NCBI GenBank assembly: GCA_034723315.1
Contig: JAYEOV010000063.1
Location: forward strand, 1 to 57,040
From: Candidatus Omnitrophota bacterium
GTDB taxonomy: Bacteria; Omnitrophota; Gorgyraeia; Tantalellales; Tantalellaceae
Reading direction: 5' to 3'
DNA length: 57,040 nt
Part shown: piece by piece, positions 27,720-35,947 of the stretch
Position numbering within the stretch: the first letter of the stretch is position 1
Layout of the letters: the number at the start of each line of letters is the position of its first letter
Translations under genes and position numbers: made by a program
Notes under the pieces: generated by a model
Database searches by the model: none
The model's input: the letters and a program-made list of their open reading frames with translations, nothing else
Told to the model about the DNA's origin: nothing

Positions 27720-27899
27720 AGAACCCATTTTATAACCCTGTTCGTTGCGAGGCTGAGCGAAAAAGCCATTGACAAGGCCTGAGGGGCAAAATGCCCGGAA
27801 ACGTAGCCGGTGCGCTACGTTGAGGACATTTTGCCCCGAAAACGCGGTCAATGGTTTTTGCAGCCAGCCGCAGTAGAACAGGGTTATGAAATTGGTTCT
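27720..27899. mobile_element. 180-bp palindromic MITE-like element, copy 2 (inverted)
   Basis: Reverse complement of 12181-12360 with few mismatches. It supplies the last codons and stop of the nucleotidyltransferase gene. Confidence 0.75.
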
Positions 27900-29023
27900 A
27901 TAAATATCTGTTTTACGATCTTGCCGGATATACCTAAAAAATGCCCCAGGTGACGCGGATAAGACACAAAACTCAACAGGATAAACCTTACCGTATCCCA
28001 TATGCTGTCAAACATCACCAGTTCCGCAAAATAATCCACATCACCGGGGTTCGCTTTTATCCTCCTGAAAGCCCACCTGTCAAGCCTTCTTTCTATCCGG
28101 GCAAGTTCTTCTATAACATGTCCCGGAATATCCGTGCCCAGAAGATCTTTCGTGAAAAGAAGCGAATAATAAACCGGCCTTCTGATCCTATACTCCCGTG
28201 TCAGCCTGAGGAATTCATCCCAGTCTATCCGTCCCTTGTGCCTGTTGATAAACTCGTGAATGTCAACGAACCACTTAAGACCCGCAAAACTGTGCTGAAT
28301 AGAGATATGGAGACACTGGTAAAGAAGATCATGGACAAGACCGGGAGTGAAGACCTTTATACCATCAAGACTTACCTCCCTCCTCCCTTCCCATGCGATC
28401 CCCGGGGTCAGCCCCAGCATCCTGTTATGCAGTATGCGCCCGAGAAAGCCCTTGTGAACATCCAGAAAGATCCTGTCCTCGAATGAATAGCTTATCTGGG
28501 AACGGTAGCTTTCCCCGGTTGTTTCCCCATCACAAAGCCGGAACCCTTTCTCTGAAAAAACACGGTTCACTTTCTTTAGTTCTTCCGGGACCACCAATAT
28601 GTCAATATCAGCGAAAGCCCTCAGCCCCCTGTCCCGGTATACGTCCATTATAAGAGGGACTCCTTTGAGGAAGAGAACCTTCAGGCCGTCTTCATGGAAT
28701 ACCGAAGATAACTCCTTTACCTTTTCCAGGATATATACGTTTCGCGACAGATCACCTGCCGATCCATCTCTCACGAAGTCCATCACGAACTCGGGCACGT
28801 GCCCTGTAAGAATTTGAAGCTGCCTGTAAACGAGGGATATCACGTCCTGAAAATTCACCGCGTCAACAAAATATTCCCAGTCTATCCTGCCCGACGATAC
28901 CAGAAAATTCGCGCGGGACCTTTCATCACAGGACAATTCTTGCCTGGAAAGCAGCAGGAGGAGCTCATCCTCCGCCGCAGCAGGCGACCGGTCAAGGGCG
29001 GGATACGGGTTCAACGACTTCAT
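27884..29023 (-). CDS. Nucleotidyltransferase family protein (NTP_transf_5-like)
   Basis: LFLKG...Y...GLR...DIDILV, LDVH, H...H...LKWFVDI, IDW. Confidence 0.85.
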   Translation of the reverse strand: MKSLNPYPALDRSPAAAEDELLLLLSRQELSCDERSRANFLVSSGRIDWEYFVDAVNFQDVISLVYRQLQILTGHVPEFVMDFVRDGSAGDLSRNVYILEKVKELSSVFHEDGLKVLFLKGVPLIMDVYRDRGLRAFADIDILVVPEELKKVNRVFSEKGFRLCDGETTGESYRSQISYSFEDRIFLDVHKGFLGRILHNRMLGLTPGIAWEGRREVSLDGIKVFTPGLVHDLLYQCLHISIQHSFAGLKWFVDIHEFINRHKGRIDWDEFLRLTREYRIRRPVYYSLLFTKDLLGTDIPGHVIEELARIERRLDRWAFRRIKANPGDVDYFAELVMFDSIWDTVRFILLSFVSYPRHLGHFLGISGKIVKQIFIEPIS

Positions 29024-29781
29024 GGATAACTTGGAAAAAAGACTTTTTCAGGATATAACGAATATGCTTTCTGCCTCAAAAGAAGCTTCAGCTCAGGATC
29101 ATCAAATACTATTTTCTTCCCGGGGCCGTACTCTTTATCGACGATCTCCACGACTTTACTCAGAAATCTCTCCGCAAAATACGGGTTCCTGTCCCTGTAC
29201 CTGATGTAAGTAGTTACCTTGATTATTTCCGGACCTTTCTCTTCAATTATGGCCCTGGCACTCAACGTTCTTCTCACGAAAGCATAGAGCCTTAATCTCC
29301 TTTCCTCCACTATGGCCGAAAAAACCAATTTATCATAAGATAACTTCCGGAAGGACTTGAATAAAGAGCTTTTTGAAGCAGCCAGCAGGAACGGATCGAT
29401 AAATCTTCTCTTGAACAAAAGAGGCGTAAGATCCGCCCTTGAAAAAAAAGCGATCAGACTGGCCGAATATCTGCGGGGAAATTCCCTGAGATCAATGATA
29501 ACGCCGTCTCTTCTGACCGCCGCCACCTTTTCATTCACATCGGAGAACGACACAATATCACGGGAACTGTAAGGAAGATTATCACCTTTAACAGTAATAT
29601 GCCGCTCTTTTCTGTCAACGCTCAGAACCCTGTGGACACCCAGTTCATCGCTCTGAGGGATCTTAAAGGTGACTATGTCGCCAGAGGTTATCTGGGAAGG
29701 TTCTATCCGTTCACAAACACATTCATCCAGGGGCCTGAGAAAGGGGAGCATGCTTTCGCCTTTGATTATCCTTGTCGTCAT
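29020..29781 (-). CDS. S24/S26 (signal peptidase I-like, Ser/His) peptidase with C-terminal extension
   Basis: GESMLPFL, GDIV.F, VHRV, KGDN; no N-terminal TM anchor. Start trimmed to MTTRI, just after the precursor stop. Confidence 0.8.
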   Translation of the reverse strand: MTTRIIKGESMLPFLRPLDECVCERIEPSQITSGDIVTFKIPQSDELGVHRVLSVDRKERHITVKGDNLPYSSRDIVSFSDVNEKVAAVRRDGVIIDLREFPRRYSASLIAFFSRADLTPLLFKRRFIDPFLLAASKSSLFKSFRKLSYDKLVFSAIVEERRLRLYAFVRRTLSARAIIEEKGPEIIKVTTYIRYRDRNPYFAERFLSKVVEIVDKEYGPGKKIVFDDPELKLLLRQKAYSLYPEKVFFPSYP

Positions 29782-29800
29782 CGTAGTGCCGTTTTGTTGA

Positions 29801-34074: not shown

Positions 34075-35158
34075 CCAGAACAGTCTCTTTCCCGACCCTG
34101 AAACCGTAAAGACTTGAAAAGTTCATGCAGTTGCCCATCTCAAATCCTTTCAGATCACATCCGTTTGAATAGTACGCCGCGGCGCGGCACCCGCCGTTGC
34201 AAAAAGAAAGATAATCACAATCATTGCAGGCAGGATTATATTTCTGAAGAGGTTCATCCGCGAGCCCGCGTATCTCTTCGAGGACCGGAGAATTCTCCCA
34301 AATATCCCTGAGAGAGCGTTTCCTCAAGTCTCCGCAAACAAGCGTCCAGAAGACCGAGCACGGAACGACCTTGCCATCCGAACGTATCGCGAGCGTGCTC
34401 TGTCCCGCGGGGCAGGTGGAGAAGCTCCCCCTTTCCCCCTTACCCTTTCCTTTTTCGTAAAAATCCTTGAGCATGCCGGCCTTCTGTCCCAAAGTTCCCC
34501 CGATAAGAAAACCGGGATATTTCTTTTTTATGCGGAATATCTCCTCCATCACATACCGGCAAACTTCCCCTTCAAAACGGAGGTCACTGACATAGCAGGC
34601 GGCGCTCCCGCATTCCACGGCGTCCCCAAAATCCATCCCCTTCAGGCCCAGAGAAAGAGCAAACGCGACCATGTTCTCTATATCCCGGTAATTATGACTG
34701 TTGATTATGGCTTTTATGTTAACGGGAAGCGAATTCTCGACAAGCATTTTCACCGCCCTGACGGCCTCTGAAAAGGATCCCTCTCCCCTCTGCCAATCAT
34801 GGATCTCAGCTCTTGACCCGTCGATACTCACCTGGATCCCCGCGAGAAATCTCAACTTCCTGAGATTTTCTACGGCTTTTTCGTCGATCAAAGTCCCGTT
34901 CGTCAAGATCGTAACTCTGATGGGACAACTGTTCAGCGCCTTAAAAAGGTCAAATATCCTCGGGTAGCAGAAAGGCTCACCGCCGAAAAGGTTCAGATTG
35001 AAGACTTTCTCCTCTTTCAACTCGTCAAGCACCGCCACTATCTCTTCAAAGGAAAGCTCGTTCTCAAGCTTCCAGGTGCCGGAAGTATTGCAATGCTTGC
35101 ATCTCAAGTTGCATTTGCCTGTTATTGCCAGATCTATTGTCGTTGGAAATGGGATCAT
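34058..35158 (-). CDS. scmE: Radical SAM/SPASM protein, SynChlorMet ScmE-like
   Basis: P.TIDLAITGKCNLRCKHC, FGGEP, LTNG, QVSIDGS; SPASM CPAG...DGKVVPC...CNDC.Y..FCNGGC; paired with the ScmF-like gene. Confidence 0.7.
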   Translation of the reverse strand: MIPFPTTIDLAITGKCNLRCKHCNTSGTWKLENELSFEEIVAVLDELKEEKVFNLNLFGGEPFCYPRIFDLFKALNSCPIRVTILTNGTLIDEKAVENLRKLRFLAGIQVSIDGSRAEIHDWQRGEGSFSEAVRAVKMLVENSLPVNIKAIINSHNYRDIENMVAFALSLGLKGMDFGDAVECGSAACYVSDLRFEGEVCRYVMEEIFRIKKKYPGFLIGGTLGQKAGMLKDFYEKGKGKGERGSFSTCPAGQSTLAIRSDGKVVPCSVFWTLVCGDLRKRSLRDIWENSPVLEEIRGLADEPLQKYNPACNDCDYLSFCNGGCRAAAYYSNGCDLKGFEMGNCMNFSSLYGFRVGKETVLDEKGR

Positions 35159-35170
35159 ATTAATGAAAAA

Positions 35171-35947
35171 TCAACCGGACGGACAGATACCTTTTATATC
35201 ATGCCGGAACAATATTATGCTCTCCCCGAAAAAGAACCATAAGATCTCATGAAAATCTTCCCTGGACAGGCCCACACCGTATCTTTTTGTTATTTCCCGC
35301 CTGATAGTTCCCAGATCTCTCCGGCCGTCAAAAAGGCTTACCAGATGAATAAGCGCGGCATCATCAAGCCCGAAACTGTCGAATGAAGCGCTATCCGAAA
35401 CATATCCGCACTTGTTTACCTGGTCTTTCACCAAGAATATCTGTTTCTTGTTCTTCCGATAGAACAGGGTCTTGAGGCGTATGACGGGATTCCGGATAAA
35501 TTTCATGTCTTCCGTAAGGGTCTTCGCGAGATACTCTTTTCTTTGTTTTTCCTGCCTCTCAAGCTCTTCCCGCTCTTTGCTGCGATAAGCATAGGTTATG
35601 CGCCATCCTTCCTTACAGGAAAATTCCCTGCAGGCTTTCGGCCTTCTCTCGTAAATGGAACATTTATTGTCCTCTCCCAGATAAACACAGGCCCCGTCCG
35701 GTTTTCTTTCGATCCAAAGATTTCTGTTTACGCAGTTTGCTTTCTCGTTCTCGCATTCCTTCCCGGAAACCGCGCAGACCGCCCTGGCCCTGTATTCCCC
35801 GGATCGGAATTCCTCTTCGGTGGTGGTGACGTTATATACACGGCAGCATATGGCTTCGCACAGATCCCGCACTTCGTCACAGTTGCCATTACCGAAGAAT
35901 ATTTTCTTGTTCCTGGCGTCGATGGTGAGTTTAGATGATCTTTTCAT
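35171..35947 (-). CDS. YkgJ-type (CxxCxxCC) cysteine-cluster protein with C-terminal PqqD/RRE-like domain
   Basis: CDEVRDLCEAICC, GACVYL..DNKCSIYERRPKACREFSC; C-terminus NP...LFDGRRDLGTI...I..RYGV....ED...IL. Confidence 0.7.
   Translation of the reverse strand: MKRSSKLTIDARNKKIFFGNGNCDEVRDLCEAICCRVYNVTTTEEEFRSGEYRARAVCAVSGKECENEKANCVNRNLWIERKPDGACVYLGEDNKCSIYERRPKACREFSCKEGWRITYAYRSKEREELERQEKQRKEYLAKTLTEDMKFIRNPVIRLKTLFYRKNKKQIFLVKDQVNKCGYVSDSASFDSFGLDDAALIHLVSLFDGRRDLGTIRREITKRYGVGLSREDFHEILWFFFGESIILFRHDIKGICPSG

What the first reader, a model, noticed from the sequence alone, without database searches (positions are those of the whole stretch)
27884..35947. Complete, expanded SynChlorMet-type radical SAM RiPP cluster with a visible precursor
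Seen: nine tightly coupled minus-strand genes, in order YkgJ-RRE fusion, rSAM/SPASM, rSAM/SPASM, HPr-kinase-like, ABC exporter, PqqD/RRE, Cys-repeat precursor, S26 peptidase and nucleotidyltransferase. Known (from memory of the TIGRFAM definitions): the SynChlorMet cassette is two rSAM/SPASM proteins (ScmE/F), PqqD-like ScmD and ScmC, described without an identified precursor or product. Inference: this locus supplies substrate, protease, exporter and extra tailoring enzymes for an uncharacterised, heavily modified, exported peptide.
Basis: partly seen in the sequence, partly recalled or inferred. Interest (0 to 1): 0.88.

Follow-up and report, generated by a model that had tools for sequence, protein, structure and literature searches.

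The report
Divergent Scm-type radical-SAM peptide gene cluster
This is a nine-gene operon for making, trimming and exporting a cysteine-repeat peptide, a divergent branch of a large, database-defined peptide-modification family for which I found no published product.

Summary
Nine minus-strand genes at 27884-35947 lie within 19 nt of each other or overlap. They include a 97-aa peptide with a strong ribosome-binding site.

The two rSAM/SPASM enzymes, PqqD and the peptide hit the Scm models best, and the kinase-like protein hits ScmC second. All five score below NCBI's cutoffs.

I surveyed 86 distinct ScmF neighbourhoods.
- 66 carry the same peptide family, a K-Y-x-x-P leader plus C-x-x-G repeats spaced about 10 residues apart.
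- 64 carry the HprK-like kinase, 57 a Sec11-like peptidase and 38 NTP_transf_5. "Expanded" therefore overstates the case.
- Only the YkgJ-type gene is rare, at 2 of 86.

Likely mechanism (inferred):
- PqqD presents the leader.
- The two rSAMs crosslink each Cys unit.
- The kinase and nucleotidyltransferase decorate Ser/Thr.
- The peptidase removes the leader.
- ABC exports the product.

I found no published product. I rate it a new variant of a known kind, of moderate interest.

The parts
35171..35947 (-). CxxCxxCC (YkgJ-type) metal-binding domain (residues about 25-112) joined to a C-terminal half (about 145-250) that is probably an RRE/PqqD-like peptide-binding domain. Rare accessory protein.
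   Evidence: Pfam PF03692 scores 24.4 bits against a cutoff of 23, and 29.1 bits on the N-terminal half alone. The C-terminal half has no Pfam hit at E<=10. hhalign against a 25-sequence PqqD alignment gives probability 1.4% and E 0.037, in a sensible register. The AF2 model has mean pLDDT 47, but residues 195-245 reach 65-87 and the order of elements is strands then three helices. ESM Atlas neighbours are MftB/PqqD chaperones (0.88-0.89) and PqqD-bearing models (TM 0.57-0.68), which the tool rates as leads only. Only 4 homologs turned up among 5.8 billion clustered proteins. The gene is present in 2 of 86 loci.
34058..35158 (-). ScmE-like radical SAM/SPASM enzyme.
   Evidence: The best NCBIfam hit is TIGR04250 ScmE at 217.7 bits (cutoff 400). 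The next is WgkB at 137.7. Pfam finds Radical_SAM at 97 bits and SPASM at 46.9. CNLRCKHC lies at 16-23 and CxxCx5Cx3C at 311-324.
32929..34074 (-). ScmF-like radical SAM/SPASM enzyme.
   Evidence: The best NCBIfam hit is TIGR04251 ScmF at 297.2 bits (cutoff 400). The next is AhbD at 157.3. CNLRCRHC lies at 36-43 and CxxCx5Cx3C at 329-342. The closest solved structure is PqqE, at only E 1.3e-15.
32113..32925 (-). HPr-kinase/PEPCK-fold P-loop protein (ScmC-like), a putative peptide Ser/Thr kinase.
   Evidence: TIGR04352 HprK-related kinase A scores 33.5 bits (cutoff 200) and TIGR04249 ScmC 28.9 (cutoff 125). The 45-sequence family alignment has an invariant His, Gly-Lys of the P-loop and a near-invariant DD. 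The profile hits HprK/P chains at E 5e-5. The AF2 model has pLDDT 89.1. Its Foldseek matches listed at E<=0.001 are PEPCK and HprK/P chains, apart from one respiratory-supercomplex chain at rank 35; best E 8e-5, probability 1.00, TM 0.33-0.47.
30395..32131 (-). ABC exporter (fused permease and ATPase) with no peptidase domain.
   Evidence: Pfam finds ABC_membrane at 67.1 bits and ABC_tran at 92.9. NCBIfam hits MsbA, type I secretion and NHLP-bacteriocin exporters, all below their cutoffs. Walker A lies at 393-400, LSGGQ at 496-500 and Walker B at 516-521.
30105..30380 (-). Stand-alone PqqD-family RRE (ScmD-like), the putative leader-peptide chaperone.
   Evidence: Pfam PqqD scores 60.4 bits against a cutoff of 23.4. 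TIGR04248 ScmD scores 45.9 bits (cutoff 100), the best NCBIfam hit.
29801..30094 (-). Precursor peptide, 97 aa. The leader (about 1-24/26) carries K-Y-V-P-P. The core has seven C-x-x-G units spaced 10/10/10/12/10/10. It is a divergent ScmA-like peptide.
   Evidence: The Shine-Dalgarno GAGGAGGAG lies 5 nt before the ATG. Translation is and motif positions. The homolog in syntenic L011 is 39% identical. The family HMM gives 90 hits against 0 in the control. TIGR04252 ScmA is the only NCBIfam hit, at 9.9 bits (cutoff 35).
29020..29781 (-). Sec11/archaeal-type (S26B-like, Ser/His) signal-peptidase-like protease with a C-terminal extension of about 120 aa of unknown fold. Putative leader peptidase.
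   Evidence: TIGR02228 sigpep_I_arch scores 35.9 bits (cutoff 51.85). Pfam S24 scores 19.3 and S26 16.3, both below cutoff. GESMLP lies at 8-13, HRV at 50-52 and GDN at 66-68. In the 40-sequence family alignment the His is invariant and the Ser near-invariant. The profile hits SEC11C/A at E 1e-15 to 4e-14 and bacterial SPase I at 1e-6 or weaker. Fusions occur elsewhere to the ABC exporter and to NTP_transf_5.
27884..29023 (-). NTP_transf_5 nucleotidyltransferase, overlapping the peptidase gene by 4 nt. Putative tailoring enzyme working with the kinase.
   Evidence: Pfam PF14907 scores 151.1 bits against a cutoff of 31.2. It is present in 38 of 86 loci, 37 of them with the kinase. It is fused to the peptidase domain in L064, L067 and L068 by Pfam, and in L031 by my own profile.

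Best explanation
The locus is a biosynthetic operon for a ribosomally made, post-translationally modified and exported peptide (RiPP). It belongs to the SynChlorMet (Scm) lineage as a divergent branch, probably from Omnitrophota.

Shown:
- The gene content and the catalytic motifs.
- The 97-aa peptide belongs to a large family that travels with ScmE/F-type enzyme pairs. The family has a K-Y-x-x-P-x-[LIV] leader followed by C-x-x-G-[S/G/T]-[S/G/T]-[A/P] units about every 10 residues.

Inferred sequence of events:
1. The stand-alone PqqD (RRE) binds the leader and presents the core to the two rSAM/SPASM enzymes, which lack RRE domains of their own.
2. The two enzymes use 5'-deoxyadenosyl radical chemistry to modify each repeat unit. 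The most likely product is one small thioether ring per Cys, with the nearly invariant Gly at +3 as the candidate acceptor or obligatory turn residue. This would give a string of up to seven micro-cycles.
3. The HprK-fold kinase phosphorylates Ser/Thr side chains of the peptide. NTP_transf_5 then adds a nucleotide-derived or sugar group, by analogy with the lasso peptides paeninodin and pseudomycoidin.
4. The YkgJ-type metalloprotein, with its own probable RRE, adds a lineage-specific step of unknown chemistry.
5. The Sec11-like Ser/His peptidase removes the leader at a small-x-small site just before the first Cys (A-Q-A|F-N-C in the window).
6. The ABC transporter exports the product.
For: Family assignment:
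- ScmE, ScmF, ScmD and ScmA are the top NCBIfam hits. ScmC is second for the kinase-like protein.
- ScmF scores form a continuum: 297 bits for the window, then 304, 321, 334, 335, 346, 364 and 383 in sampled relatives, and 503, 533 and 608 in the 3 of 10 sampled that clear the cutoff.
- 39 of 86 ScmF proteins reach E<=1e-119.
- L011 is fully syntenic for all nine genes.

Precursor:
- It has a strong Shine-Dalgarno sequence.
- There are 90 HMM hits against 0 in the reversed control.
- The peptide is present in 66 of 86 distinct loci.
- Gly sits at C+3 in 353 of 381 units, and a Cys spacing of 9-12 occurs in 269 of 307 intervals.
- The profile finds 2,095 cluster representatives at E<=1e-3 among 1.84 billion proteins. 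Most of the 150 best listed are 70-110 aa and match from the leader onward.

Enzymes:
- Both rSAMs have the CxxxCxxC site and the full SPASM motif.
- PqqD passes its Pfam cutoff.
- The kinase fold is supported.

Peptidase role:
- The catalytic Ser and His are conserved, and Sec11 is the best solved relative.
- In L012 the peptidase domain is fused to the N-terminus of the ABC exporter.
- The window's exporter has no peptidase domain.
- 64 of 74 peptides have a small-x-small motif in the 8 residues before the first Cys.

Kinase and NTase pairing:
- 37 of 38 NTP_transf_5 loci also have the kinase.
- Passages of a lasso-peptide review state that an HPr-kinase homolog phosphorylates a precursor Ser and a nucleotidyltransferase adds hexoses to that phosphate. 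They also state that the NTase is sometimes fused to the leader protease (PMC8498205). That mirrors the peptidase-NTP_transf_5 fusions seen here.

Against: - No chemistry was or can be observed here. The thioether assignment is by analogy only.
- After the Scm models, ScmF's next-best NCBIfam hits are heme-pathway rSAMs: AhbD at 157 bits, then NirJ2 and AhbC. They are not thioether synthases.
- All five Scm equivalog cutoffs are missed.
- G-x-C enrichment is also a feature of the internal repeats (Gly at C-2 in 30% of units). The 'small-x-small' junction is therefore weak evidence for a cleavage site.
- The lasso kinases act on a C-terminal Ser. The window peptide ends in ...FFVK, so the target would have to differ.
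- The RRE nature of the YkgJ protein's C-terminal half is not significant by hhalign, and Foldseek found nothing.
- 20 of 86 loci showed no peptide with my HMM. Some of these contigs are short.
Confidence: 0.6

Rival explanations
1. It is an exported RiPP as described, but the two rSAM/SPASM enzymes do something other than Cys thioether formation. Possibilities include C-C crosslinks, epimerisation, oxidative decarboxylation, or another transformation of Cys. In this reading the Cys and Gly periodicity serves recognition or metal binding.
For: - The next-best families after Scm include MftC (oxidative decarboxylation and C-C bond), AhbD/NirJ and WgkB.
- Two different rSAMs per cluster suggest two different reactions. 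ScmE is found in 78 of 87 loci by BLAST.
- SPASM enzymes are chemically diverse (review passages).
Against: - Cys is the only invariant core residue apart from Gly.
- In characterised Cys-repeat rSAM substrates the Cys is the crosslink donor. Examples are the passages, and the CrpA/CrpC ranthionine abstract (PMC13692751).
Confidence: 0.27
2. The peptide is a scaffold for a small cofactor or redox or metal-binding molecule used by the cell, as in PQQ or mycofactocin. It would not be a secreted macrocyclic peptide.
For: - PqqD/MftB-type chaperones and PqqE/MftC-like enzymes are the nearest characterised relatives.
- The family is concentrated in anaerobes such as Desulfobacterota, syntrophs, methanogens and Chloroflexota, going by the record titles.
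Against: - A dedicated ABC exporter is present in 37 of 87 loci by BLAST. In L012 it is fused to the leader-type peptidase.
- The repeat number varies from 3 to 9 Cys. That fits a variable secreted product better than a fixed cofactor.
- Several loci encode multiple different peptides, for example L014, L038 and L064.
Confidence: 0.08
3. The small ORF is a fortuitous open frame and the true substrate lies elsewhere.
For: - The word-based search found only the peptide itself.
- The peptide's composition is low in complexity.
Against: - It has a strong Shine-Dalgarno sequence.
- There is a homolog at the same position in syntenic L011.
- 90 family hits against 0 in the reversed control.
- The leader residues Y6 and P9 and the first C-x-x-G are invariant in 54 sequences.
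- ScmA is the only curated family hit.
Confidence: 0.02

Closest known systems
SynChlorMet (Scm) cassette of TIGRFAMs/NCBIfam: ScmA (TIGR04252), ScmC (TIGR04249), ScmD (TIGR04248), ScmE (TIGR04250), ScmF (TIGR04251)
   Same: - It has the same core parts: two rSAM/SPASM enzymes, a PqqD protein, an HprK-like protein and a small Cys/Gly-rich peptide.
- The Scm models are the best hits for four components and the second-best for the kinase-like protein.
- Loci whose ScmF clears the cutoff carry the same peptide family, kinase and peptidase.
   Different: - Every window protein scores below the curated cutoff: 217.7/400, 297.2/400, 45.9/100, 28.9/125 and 9.9/35.
- The peptide is about twice the length of the 49-position ScmA model and has seven repeats.
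- There is an extra YkgJ-type gene, found in only 2 of 86 loci.
- I found no publication describing the cassette's product.
Sactipeptides and ranthipeptides with small, non-nested rings (streptosactin/GggB, QmpB, NxxcB, PapB/freyrasin)
   Same: - rSAM/SPASM enzymes act on a leader-bearing peptide with repeated Cys-containing motifs.
[quoted passage not shown] That fits a C-x-x-G unit.
   Different: - These families are not the top hits. PapB scores 90 bits and StsB 127 bits against the ScmE-like enzyme.
- This locus has two different rSAMs, a discrete PqqD, a kinase, an NTase and a Sec11-like peptidase.
- The chemistry is untested. The freyrasin C-x-x-x-D repeat pattern is recalled from memory and comes from no call.
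Phosphorylated and phosphoglycosylated lasso peptides (paeninodin, pseudomycoidin)
   Same: - An HPr-kinase homolog and a nucleotidyltransferase sit next to a PqqD-type RRE and a leader protease.
- The NTase is sometimes fused to the protease, from passages of PMC8498205. The parallel here is the peptidase-NTP_transf_5 fusions.
   Different: - There is no lasso cyclase and no B2 cysteine protease here.
- The lasso kinases target a C-terminal Ser, which the window peptide lacks.
- I did not test whether the lasso NTase belongs to PF14907.
CrpA/CrpC of Methanococcus voltae (ranthionine crosslinks on a Cys-rich protein)
   Same: A SPASM rSAM with three [4Fe-4S] clusters installs thioethers on a Cys-rich substrate encoded next to it (abstract of PMC13692751).
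   Different: - It has a single enzyme with its own predicted RRE and a large protein substrate.
- Going by the abstract and outline I read, it is a separate system. I ran no sequence comparison against it.
Peptidase-containing ABC transporters (C39 peptidase fused to an ABC exporter) of bacteriocin systems
   Same: The logic is leader cleavage coupled to export. In L012 a peptidase domain sits at the N-terminus of the ABC exporter.
   Different: - The peptidase here is of the Ser/His signal-peptidase (Sec11) type, not a C39 cysteine protease.
- In the window it is a separate gene.
- The comparison with C39-ABC transporters rests on general knowledge, not on a call.

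Membership tests
SynChlorMet cassette (NCBIfam equivalogs) | ScmE model TIGR04250 at or above 400 bits | tested here: not met
   217.7 bits. It is the best hit, and the next family scores 137.7.
SynChlorMet cassette (NCBIfam equivalogs) | ScmF model TIGR04251 at or above 400 bits | tested here: not met
   297.2 bits. It is the best hit, and the next family scores 157.3. Relatives form a continuum from 304 to 608 bits.
SynChlorMet cassette (NCBIfam equivalogs) | ScmD (TIGR04248, 100 bits), ScmC (TIGR04249, 125 bits) and ScmA (TIGR04252, 35 bits) cutoffs | tested here: not met
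   45.9, 28.9 and 9.9 bits.
SynChlorMet cassette (gene-neighbourhood definition) | Two different rSAM/SPASM genes plus PqqD, an HprK-like gene and a small Cys/Gly peptide in one operon | tested here: met
   All are present within 27884-35947. The same set occurs in loci with a canonical ScmF: L038, L064 and L075.
Radical SAM / SPASM subfamily | CxxxCxxC SAM-cluster motif and the C-terminal CxxCx5Cx3C auxiliary-cluster motif. Pfam PF04055 and PF13186 above cutoff. | tested here: met
   Both proteins meet this. SPASM in the ScmF-like protein only just passes, at 21.7 against 21.5.
RRE / PqqD family (stand-alone protein 30105-30380) | Pfam PF05402 above 23.4 bits | tested here: met
   60.4 bits. 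Binding to the leader was not tested.
RRE / PqqD family (C-terminal half of 35171-35947) | Significant sequence or fold match to PqqD/RRE | tested here: inconclusive
   - No Pfam hit at E<=10.
- hhalign gives probability 1.4% and E 0.037.
- The model is low-confidence with RRE-like element order.
- Foldseek gives 0 matches at E<=0.001.
- Atlas neighbours are MftB/PqqD at 0.88-0.89, which the tool rates as leads only.
Signal peptidase I, Sec11/archaeal type (S26B) | Catalytic Ser in G-x-S-M-x-P and a catalytic His, not Lys, in H-R-V. Model scores above cutoff. | tested here: inconclusive
   - The motifs are present and conserved across 40 homologs.
- The family profile hits SEC11C at E 9.7e-16.
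- The single sequence is below cutoff in NCBIfam (35.9 against 51.85) and in Pfam (19.3 against 23.3; 16.3 against 22.9).
- Reading His as the general base rests on established knowledge of Sec11-type enzymes, not on a call.
HPr kinase/phosphorylase-like (PEPCK-fold) kinases | P-loop with the flanking His and the DD motif, and the HprK/PEPCK fold | tested here: met
   - Conserved H, GK[ST] and DD.
- HprK/P chains hit at E 5e-5.
- The confident model has Foldseek hits at E<=0.001 that are PEPCK and HprK/P chains, apart from one respiratory-supercomplex chain at rank 35.
- TM scores are modest (0.33-0.47).
- Kinase activity is untested.
Sactipeptide / ranthipeptide | Cys sulfur to alpha-, beta- or gamma-carbon thioether crosslinks in the mature peptide | not testable with these tools
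   This needs mass spectrometry or NMR of the modified peptide.

The most novel reading that the evidence does not exclude
Scm-type peptides are a distinct, widespread and so far unstudied RiPP class of anaerobes. The mature product would be a chain of 3-9 (seven here) small Cys-anchored rings, one per C-x-x-G-S/T-x-A unit, installed by two cooperating rSAM/SPASM enzymes. It would be further phosphorylated and nucleotidylated or glycosylated on Ser/Thr by an HprK-fold kinase and NTP_transf_5. The leader would be removed by a eukaryote/archaeal-type (Sec11-like, Ser/His) signal peptidase recruited as a dedicated RiPP leader protease. The window's lineage adds a YkgJ-type metalloenzyme with its own RRE.
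Probability: 0.3. Interest if true: 0.75.

Novelty: new variant of a known kind. Interest (0 to 1): 0.5.

Why it matters
The Scm cassette has existed as a set of database models, but I found no description of its product in the literature I could search.

This window, read together with 85 related neighbourhoods, gives a concrete and testable picture of the whole system:
- a sharply defined repeat peptide, with about 2,000 sequence clusters at 50% identity;
- a regular set of accessory enzymes (kinase, nucleotidyltransferase, Sec11-like leader peptidase, exporter);
- domain fusions that tie those accessory enzymes to the pathway.

It offers a compact nine-gene operon from a small-genome bacterium as a starting point for heterologous reconstitution. 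It also shows that the curated ScmA model recognises only a small part of the precursor family: none of the 10 peptides scanned singly reaches its cutoff.

Tried and rejected
- **Word-based homolog search with the peptide.** It returned only the query itself. I replaced it with neighbourhood mining and a profile search.
- **Promoter and terminator scan of 26500-37500.** The counts equal the shuffles (11 against 11.8, and 13 against 12.1), so it is uninformative.
- **Foldseek on the YkgJ-protein model.** There were 0 matches at E<=0.001. The model is too poor (mean pLDDT 47) for this to mean anything.
- **Complex prediction.** I tested the YkgJ protein's C-terminal half (residues 140-258, 5-row alignment) against the peptide's first 45 residues (54-row alignment). 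The verdict was 'no answer', which is neither support nor evidence against.
- **The look-up of sequencing runs on 27884-35947.** No RNA holder is listed. Nothing is concluded about expression or habitat.
- **Giant profile hits.** I inspected P0002 (1062 aa) and P0005 (1843 aa). One is a tandem low-complexity repeat and the other an unrelated Cys-repeat surface-type protein. I rejected both as family members. The other long hits were not inspected.
- **First accessory-gene tally by BLAST with the window proteins.** It undercounted divergent homologs (HprK 26, S26 10, NTP5 33 of 87). The iterated profiles supersede it. Iteration can drift. As a check, 45 of 59 peptidase hits keep G-x-S-M-x-P, and the median distance to ScmF is 2.5 kb.
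- **VanZ-like gene downstream and DegT-type sugar genes upstream.** I considered them as cluster members and rejected them. By BLAST they occur in 1 of 87 and 6 of 87 loci.
- **Literature.** 'SynChlorMet' returned 0 papers. TIGR04250/1/2 had 0 occurrences in the 25 papers listed, and the ScmA/E/F hits listed were unrelated acronyms or proteins. Three broader searches and two targeted reads found no characterised Scm product. The 2011 in-silico rSAM/peptide paper that I recalled could not be opened by DOI or by a recalled PMC id. Most subscription journals are not held and supplements are closed, so a published characterisation or an atlas table listing this family may exist unseen.

Full report
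**1. Observation**

With starts refined from the sequence, neighbouring genes are separated by at most 19 nt or overlap by 4-19 nt. About 145 nt separates the first gene from the upstream DegT-type gene, and about 150 nt follows the last gene. The small ORF is best read from the ATG at 30094, which lies 5 nt after GAGGAGGAG. That gives a 97-aa peptide with K-Y-V-P-P at residues 5-9. It has seven C-x-x-G units at Cys 27, 37, 47, 57, 69, 79 and 89, spaced 10/10/10/12/10/10.

**2. Gene identities**

NCBIfam gives the following best hits.
- First rSAM: ScmE, 217.7 bits (cutoff 400).
- Second rSAM: ScmF, 297.2 bits (cutoff 400).
- The 91-aa protein: ScmD, 45.9 bits (cutoff 100).
- The 270-aa protein: HprK-related kinase A at 33.5 bits (cutoff 200), then ScmC at 28.9 (cutoff 125).
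- The peptidase: archaeal-type signal peptidase I, 35.9 bits (cutoff 51.85).

Pfam confirms these domains.
- Radical_SAM plus SPASM in both enzymes.
- PqqD at 60.4 bits.
- ABC_membrane plus ABC_tran.
- NTP_transf_5 at 151.1 bits.
- CxxCxxCC/YkgJ at 24.4 bits, on residues 25-112 of the first protein.

Both rSAMs carry CxxxCxxC and the CxxCx5Cx3C SPASM motif. The genome (1.81 Mb, 64 contigs, 94.8% complete) has no second copy of the pair.

**3.

I scanned 54 peptides of the family against NCBIfam. The only recurrent family was TIGR04252, 'SynChlorMet cassette protein ScmA' (model name SCM_precur_ScmA). It matched 23 of 54 at E<=1, with a best E of 2.5e-7. The window peptide scores 9.9 bits (E 0.87, cutoff 35). 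A precursor model for the cassette therefore already exists. It is narrow: of 10 peptides scanned singly, 8 listed it and none reached 35 bits, the best being 25.0.

**4. The family around it**

Within the window's phylum, 8 of 301 sampled genomes (G000 included) have an ScmF relative at E<=1e-40. One of them, L011 (same family), is syntenic for all nine genes. Its identities to the window are:
- ScmE 66%
- PqqD 57%
- ScmF 55%
- ABC 49%
- peptidase 46%
- NTP_transf_5 42%
- peptide 39%
- kinase-like 38%
- the YkgJ-type gene, which is cut by the contig end.

The best 80 were kept. Their record titles include Omnitrophota, Desulfobacterota ('delta proteobacteria'), Syntrophus, Syntrophobacter, Chlorobium, several methanogens, Chloroflexota and others. 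One duplicate (L096 = L015) was dropped, leaving 86 distinct loci including the window. L015 was labelled 'same phylum', and its twin L096 is titled Candidatus Omnitrophota. The window's organism is therefore most likely an Omnitrophota bacterium. This is an inference.

**5. The peptide family**

An HMM seeded from eight peptides and iterated twice gives 90 ORF hits at E<=1e-4 among 21,453 ORFs of these loci. The reversed-sequence control gives 0 at that threshold and 1 at E<=1e-2.

At least one hit occurs in 66 of 86 distinct loci. Several of the 20 without a hit are short contigs. In 74 distinct peptides that also pass a leader-plus-three-CxxG filter:
- Gly occupies C+3 in 353 of 381 units.
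- Ala or Pro occupies C+6 in 59%.
- Ser, Gly or Thr dominate C+4 and C+5.
- Cys-to-Cys spacing is 10 in 132 of 307 intervals and 9-12 in 269 of 307.
- Cys number ranges from 3 to 9, with a mode of 5 (32 of 74).

In the 54-sequence alignment M1, Y6, P9, the first C-x-x-G and the second Cys are invariant.

As a profile against 1.84 billion cluster representatives the family yields 2,095 hits at E<=1e-3 and 47 at E<=1e-10. Most of the 150 listed are 70-110 aa and match from profile position 1-7. I inspected nine. Seven are true members, including a 265-aa multi-repeat form. Two giants are artefacts or unrelated.

**6. Accessory genes are the rule, not an expansion**

Iterated profiles restricted to these neighbourhoods give the following counts.

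| Component | Loci of 86 |
|---|---|
| HprK-like protein | 64 |
| Peptidase | 57 |
| NTP_transf_5 | 38 (37 together with the kinase) |
| YkgJ-type protein | 2 (window and L011) |
| Kinase + peptidase + NTP_transf_5 + peptide together | 32 |

On a midpoint-rooted FastTree of the 86 ScmF proteins these genes are scattered across the tree. The window groups with L011 and L018. I used the tree descriptively only, and its support values were not examined.

ScmF scores form a continuum. 39 of 86 reach E<=1e-119, which is about the 400-bit cutoff. Among 10 sampled across the tree, three clear the cutoff (L038 at 503, L075 at 533, L064 at 608) and seven do not (304-383). The three canonical loci all carry the peptide family, the kinase and the peptidase. 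The window is therefore a divergent branch of one continuous family.

**7. Peptidase**

The 40-sequence family alignment reads G-x-S-M-x-P-T-L ... H-R-V-V ... G-D-N-N. The His is invariant and the Ser nearly so. The window has Ser10, His50 and GDN at 66-68. The profile's best solved relatives are the ER signal-peptidase subunits SEC11C and SEC11A (E 9.7e-16 to 3.9e-14). Bacterial SPase I follows at 1e-6 or weaker. This is thus a Ser/His, Sec11/archaeal-type enzyme.

Its role as leader peptidase is inferred from three things:
1. In L012 the domain is fused to the N-terminus of the ABC exporter (Pfam S26 at residues 16-68, ABC_membrane at 145-414, ABC_tran at 478-626).
2. The window's exporter lacks any peptidase domain.
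3. Small residues precede the first Cys. G, A or S sit at -2 in 70% of peptides, and a small-x-small motif occurs in 64 of 74 junctions. The window has A-Q-A just before F-N-C.

The third point is weak, because G-x-C is also part of the internal repeat.

**8. Kinase and nucleotidyltransferase**

The family alignment of the 270-aa protein conserves L-H-x-A ... G-x-G-K-S-T ... L-S-D-D. Its profile reaches HprK/P chains at E 5e-5 over positions 26-81. Stronger but shorter hits are generic P-loops. A confident AF2 model (pLDDT 89.1, pTM 0.82) has Foldseek matches at E<=0.001 that are PEP carboxykinases and HprK/P chains, apart from one respiratory-supercomplex chain at rank 35. The best E is 8e-5, probability is 1.00 and TM is 0.33-0.47.

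NTP_transf_5 is fused to the peptidase domain in L064, L067 and L068 by Pfam, and in L031 by my profile. In the window the two genes overlap by 4 nt.

Passages of a lasso-peptide review (PMC8498205) state three relevant things. An HPr-kinase homolog phosphorylates the precursor's C-terminal Ser. A nucleotidyltransferase then attaches one or two hexoses to that phosphate. The nucleotidyltransferase is sometimes fused to the B2 leader protease. That is the closest functional precedent. The target residue must differ here, because the window peptide does not end in Ser.

**9. The first gene**

Its N-terminal half is a CxxCxxCC domain with 11 invariant Cys across five sequences. Only four homologs were found among 5.8 billion clustered proteins, at 50-56% identity.

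The C-terminal half gives mixed evidence.
- It has no Pfam hit at E<=10.
- It aligns to a PqqD profile in a sensible register, but without significance (probability 1.4%, E 0.037).
- The AF2 model is poor overall (pLDDT 47). Residues 195-245 reach 65-87, and the order of elements is four strands then three helices.
- Foldseek on that model found nothing.
- The ESM Atlas places residues 140-258 nearest to MftB and PqqD chaperone clusters (0.88-0.89) and, by structure, to PqqD-bearing models (TM 0.57-0.68). The tool says such scores are leads only.

I rate the RRE reading at about 0.7.

**10. Mechanism and its limits**

What is shown:
- the parts, their motifs and their co-occurrence;
- the fusions;
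- the peptide family.

What is inferred:
- that PqqD binds the leader;
- that the rSAMs crosslink each Cys unit, with thioether most likely and the +3 Gly as candidate acceptor;
- that the kinase and NTase decorate Ser/Thr;
- that the Sec11-like enzyme removes the leader;
- that ABC exports the product.

[quoted passage not shown] CrpC installs ranthionines on a Cys-rich neighbour protein (abstract of PMC13692751).

Against a simple thioether reading, ScmF's next-best families after Scm are heme-pathway rSAMs. The presence of two distinct rSAMs also suggests two reactions.

**11. Novelty and verdict**

The kind is known as a curated database family that includes a precursor model. I found no paper on it:
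- 'SynChlorMet' returned 0 papers.
- The TIGR accession numbers had 0 occurrences in the 25 papers listed.
- Three broader searches found none.

These searches miss most subscription journals, and supplements are closed.

The window is a sub-threshold, lineage-specific variant with a seven-repeat precursor and a rare extra metalloprotein. It sits among housekeeping genes on one side (RecG, RecJ, SecDF, acetate kinase) and sugar-modification genes on the other (DegT, WbqC). Composition is even across the window.

I rate it a new variant of a known kind, with interest 0.5. It would not surprise a specialist. It is a clean, compact entry point to a large uncharacterised RiPP family.

Noticed in passing
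window 80-8080 (-): A 2,666-aa ORF whose only Pfam hit is RHS_repeat (44.3 bits), at the left end of the window.
   Followed up: partly
window 27129-27731 (-): A VanZ-like membrane protein (Pfam 35.4 bits) lies about 150 nt downstream of the cluster. By BLAST it is found beside ScmF only in the window (1 of 87 loci), so it is probably not part of the cluster. L011's contig ends before this position.
   Followed up: partly
window 36093-38558 (-) and onward to about 57009: A long run of minus-strand sugar and polysaccharide-type genes lies directly upstream: DegT aminotransferase at 297.6 bits and WbqC at 274.1 bits. By eye there are also a PIG-L-like deacetylase and glycosyltransferases. DegT homologs lie near ScmF in 6 of 87 loci. 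A link to the nucleotidyltransferase step was not examined.
   Followed up: no
window 46780-48243 and 48240-49712 (-): Two adjacent ORFs of about 490 aa have no Pfam hit at E<=1e-5.
   Followed up: no
L094:12055-13311 (+): One open frame holds both the HprK-like domain (used in alignment A5) and an S24/S26 peptidase stretch (residues 221-281). This may be a kinase-peptidase fusion, a third fusion type in this family.
   Followed up: no
L014, L038, L064, L070, L031, L049: Several loci encode 3-5 different peptides of the family beside one ScmE/F pair.
   Followed up: partly
P0004 (265 aa); L028:11969-12628 (220 aa): The family has long forms. P0004 has a normal leader followed by some twenty Cys units. 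The L028 peptide has a normal repeat core followed by a tail of about 110 residues rich in Lys, Glu, Gly and Ser.
   Followed up: no
window 29020-29400 (-), residues about 128-253 of the peptidase: The C-terminal half of the peptidase has no Pfam hit at E<=10. Most family members are 200-240 aa as open frames, so an extra domain of unknown function seems common.
   Followed up: no
window 26335-27081 (-): Two adjacent small ORFs (118 and 121 aa) look by eye like single-domain response-regulator receivers (translations). No tool was run on them.
   Followed up: no
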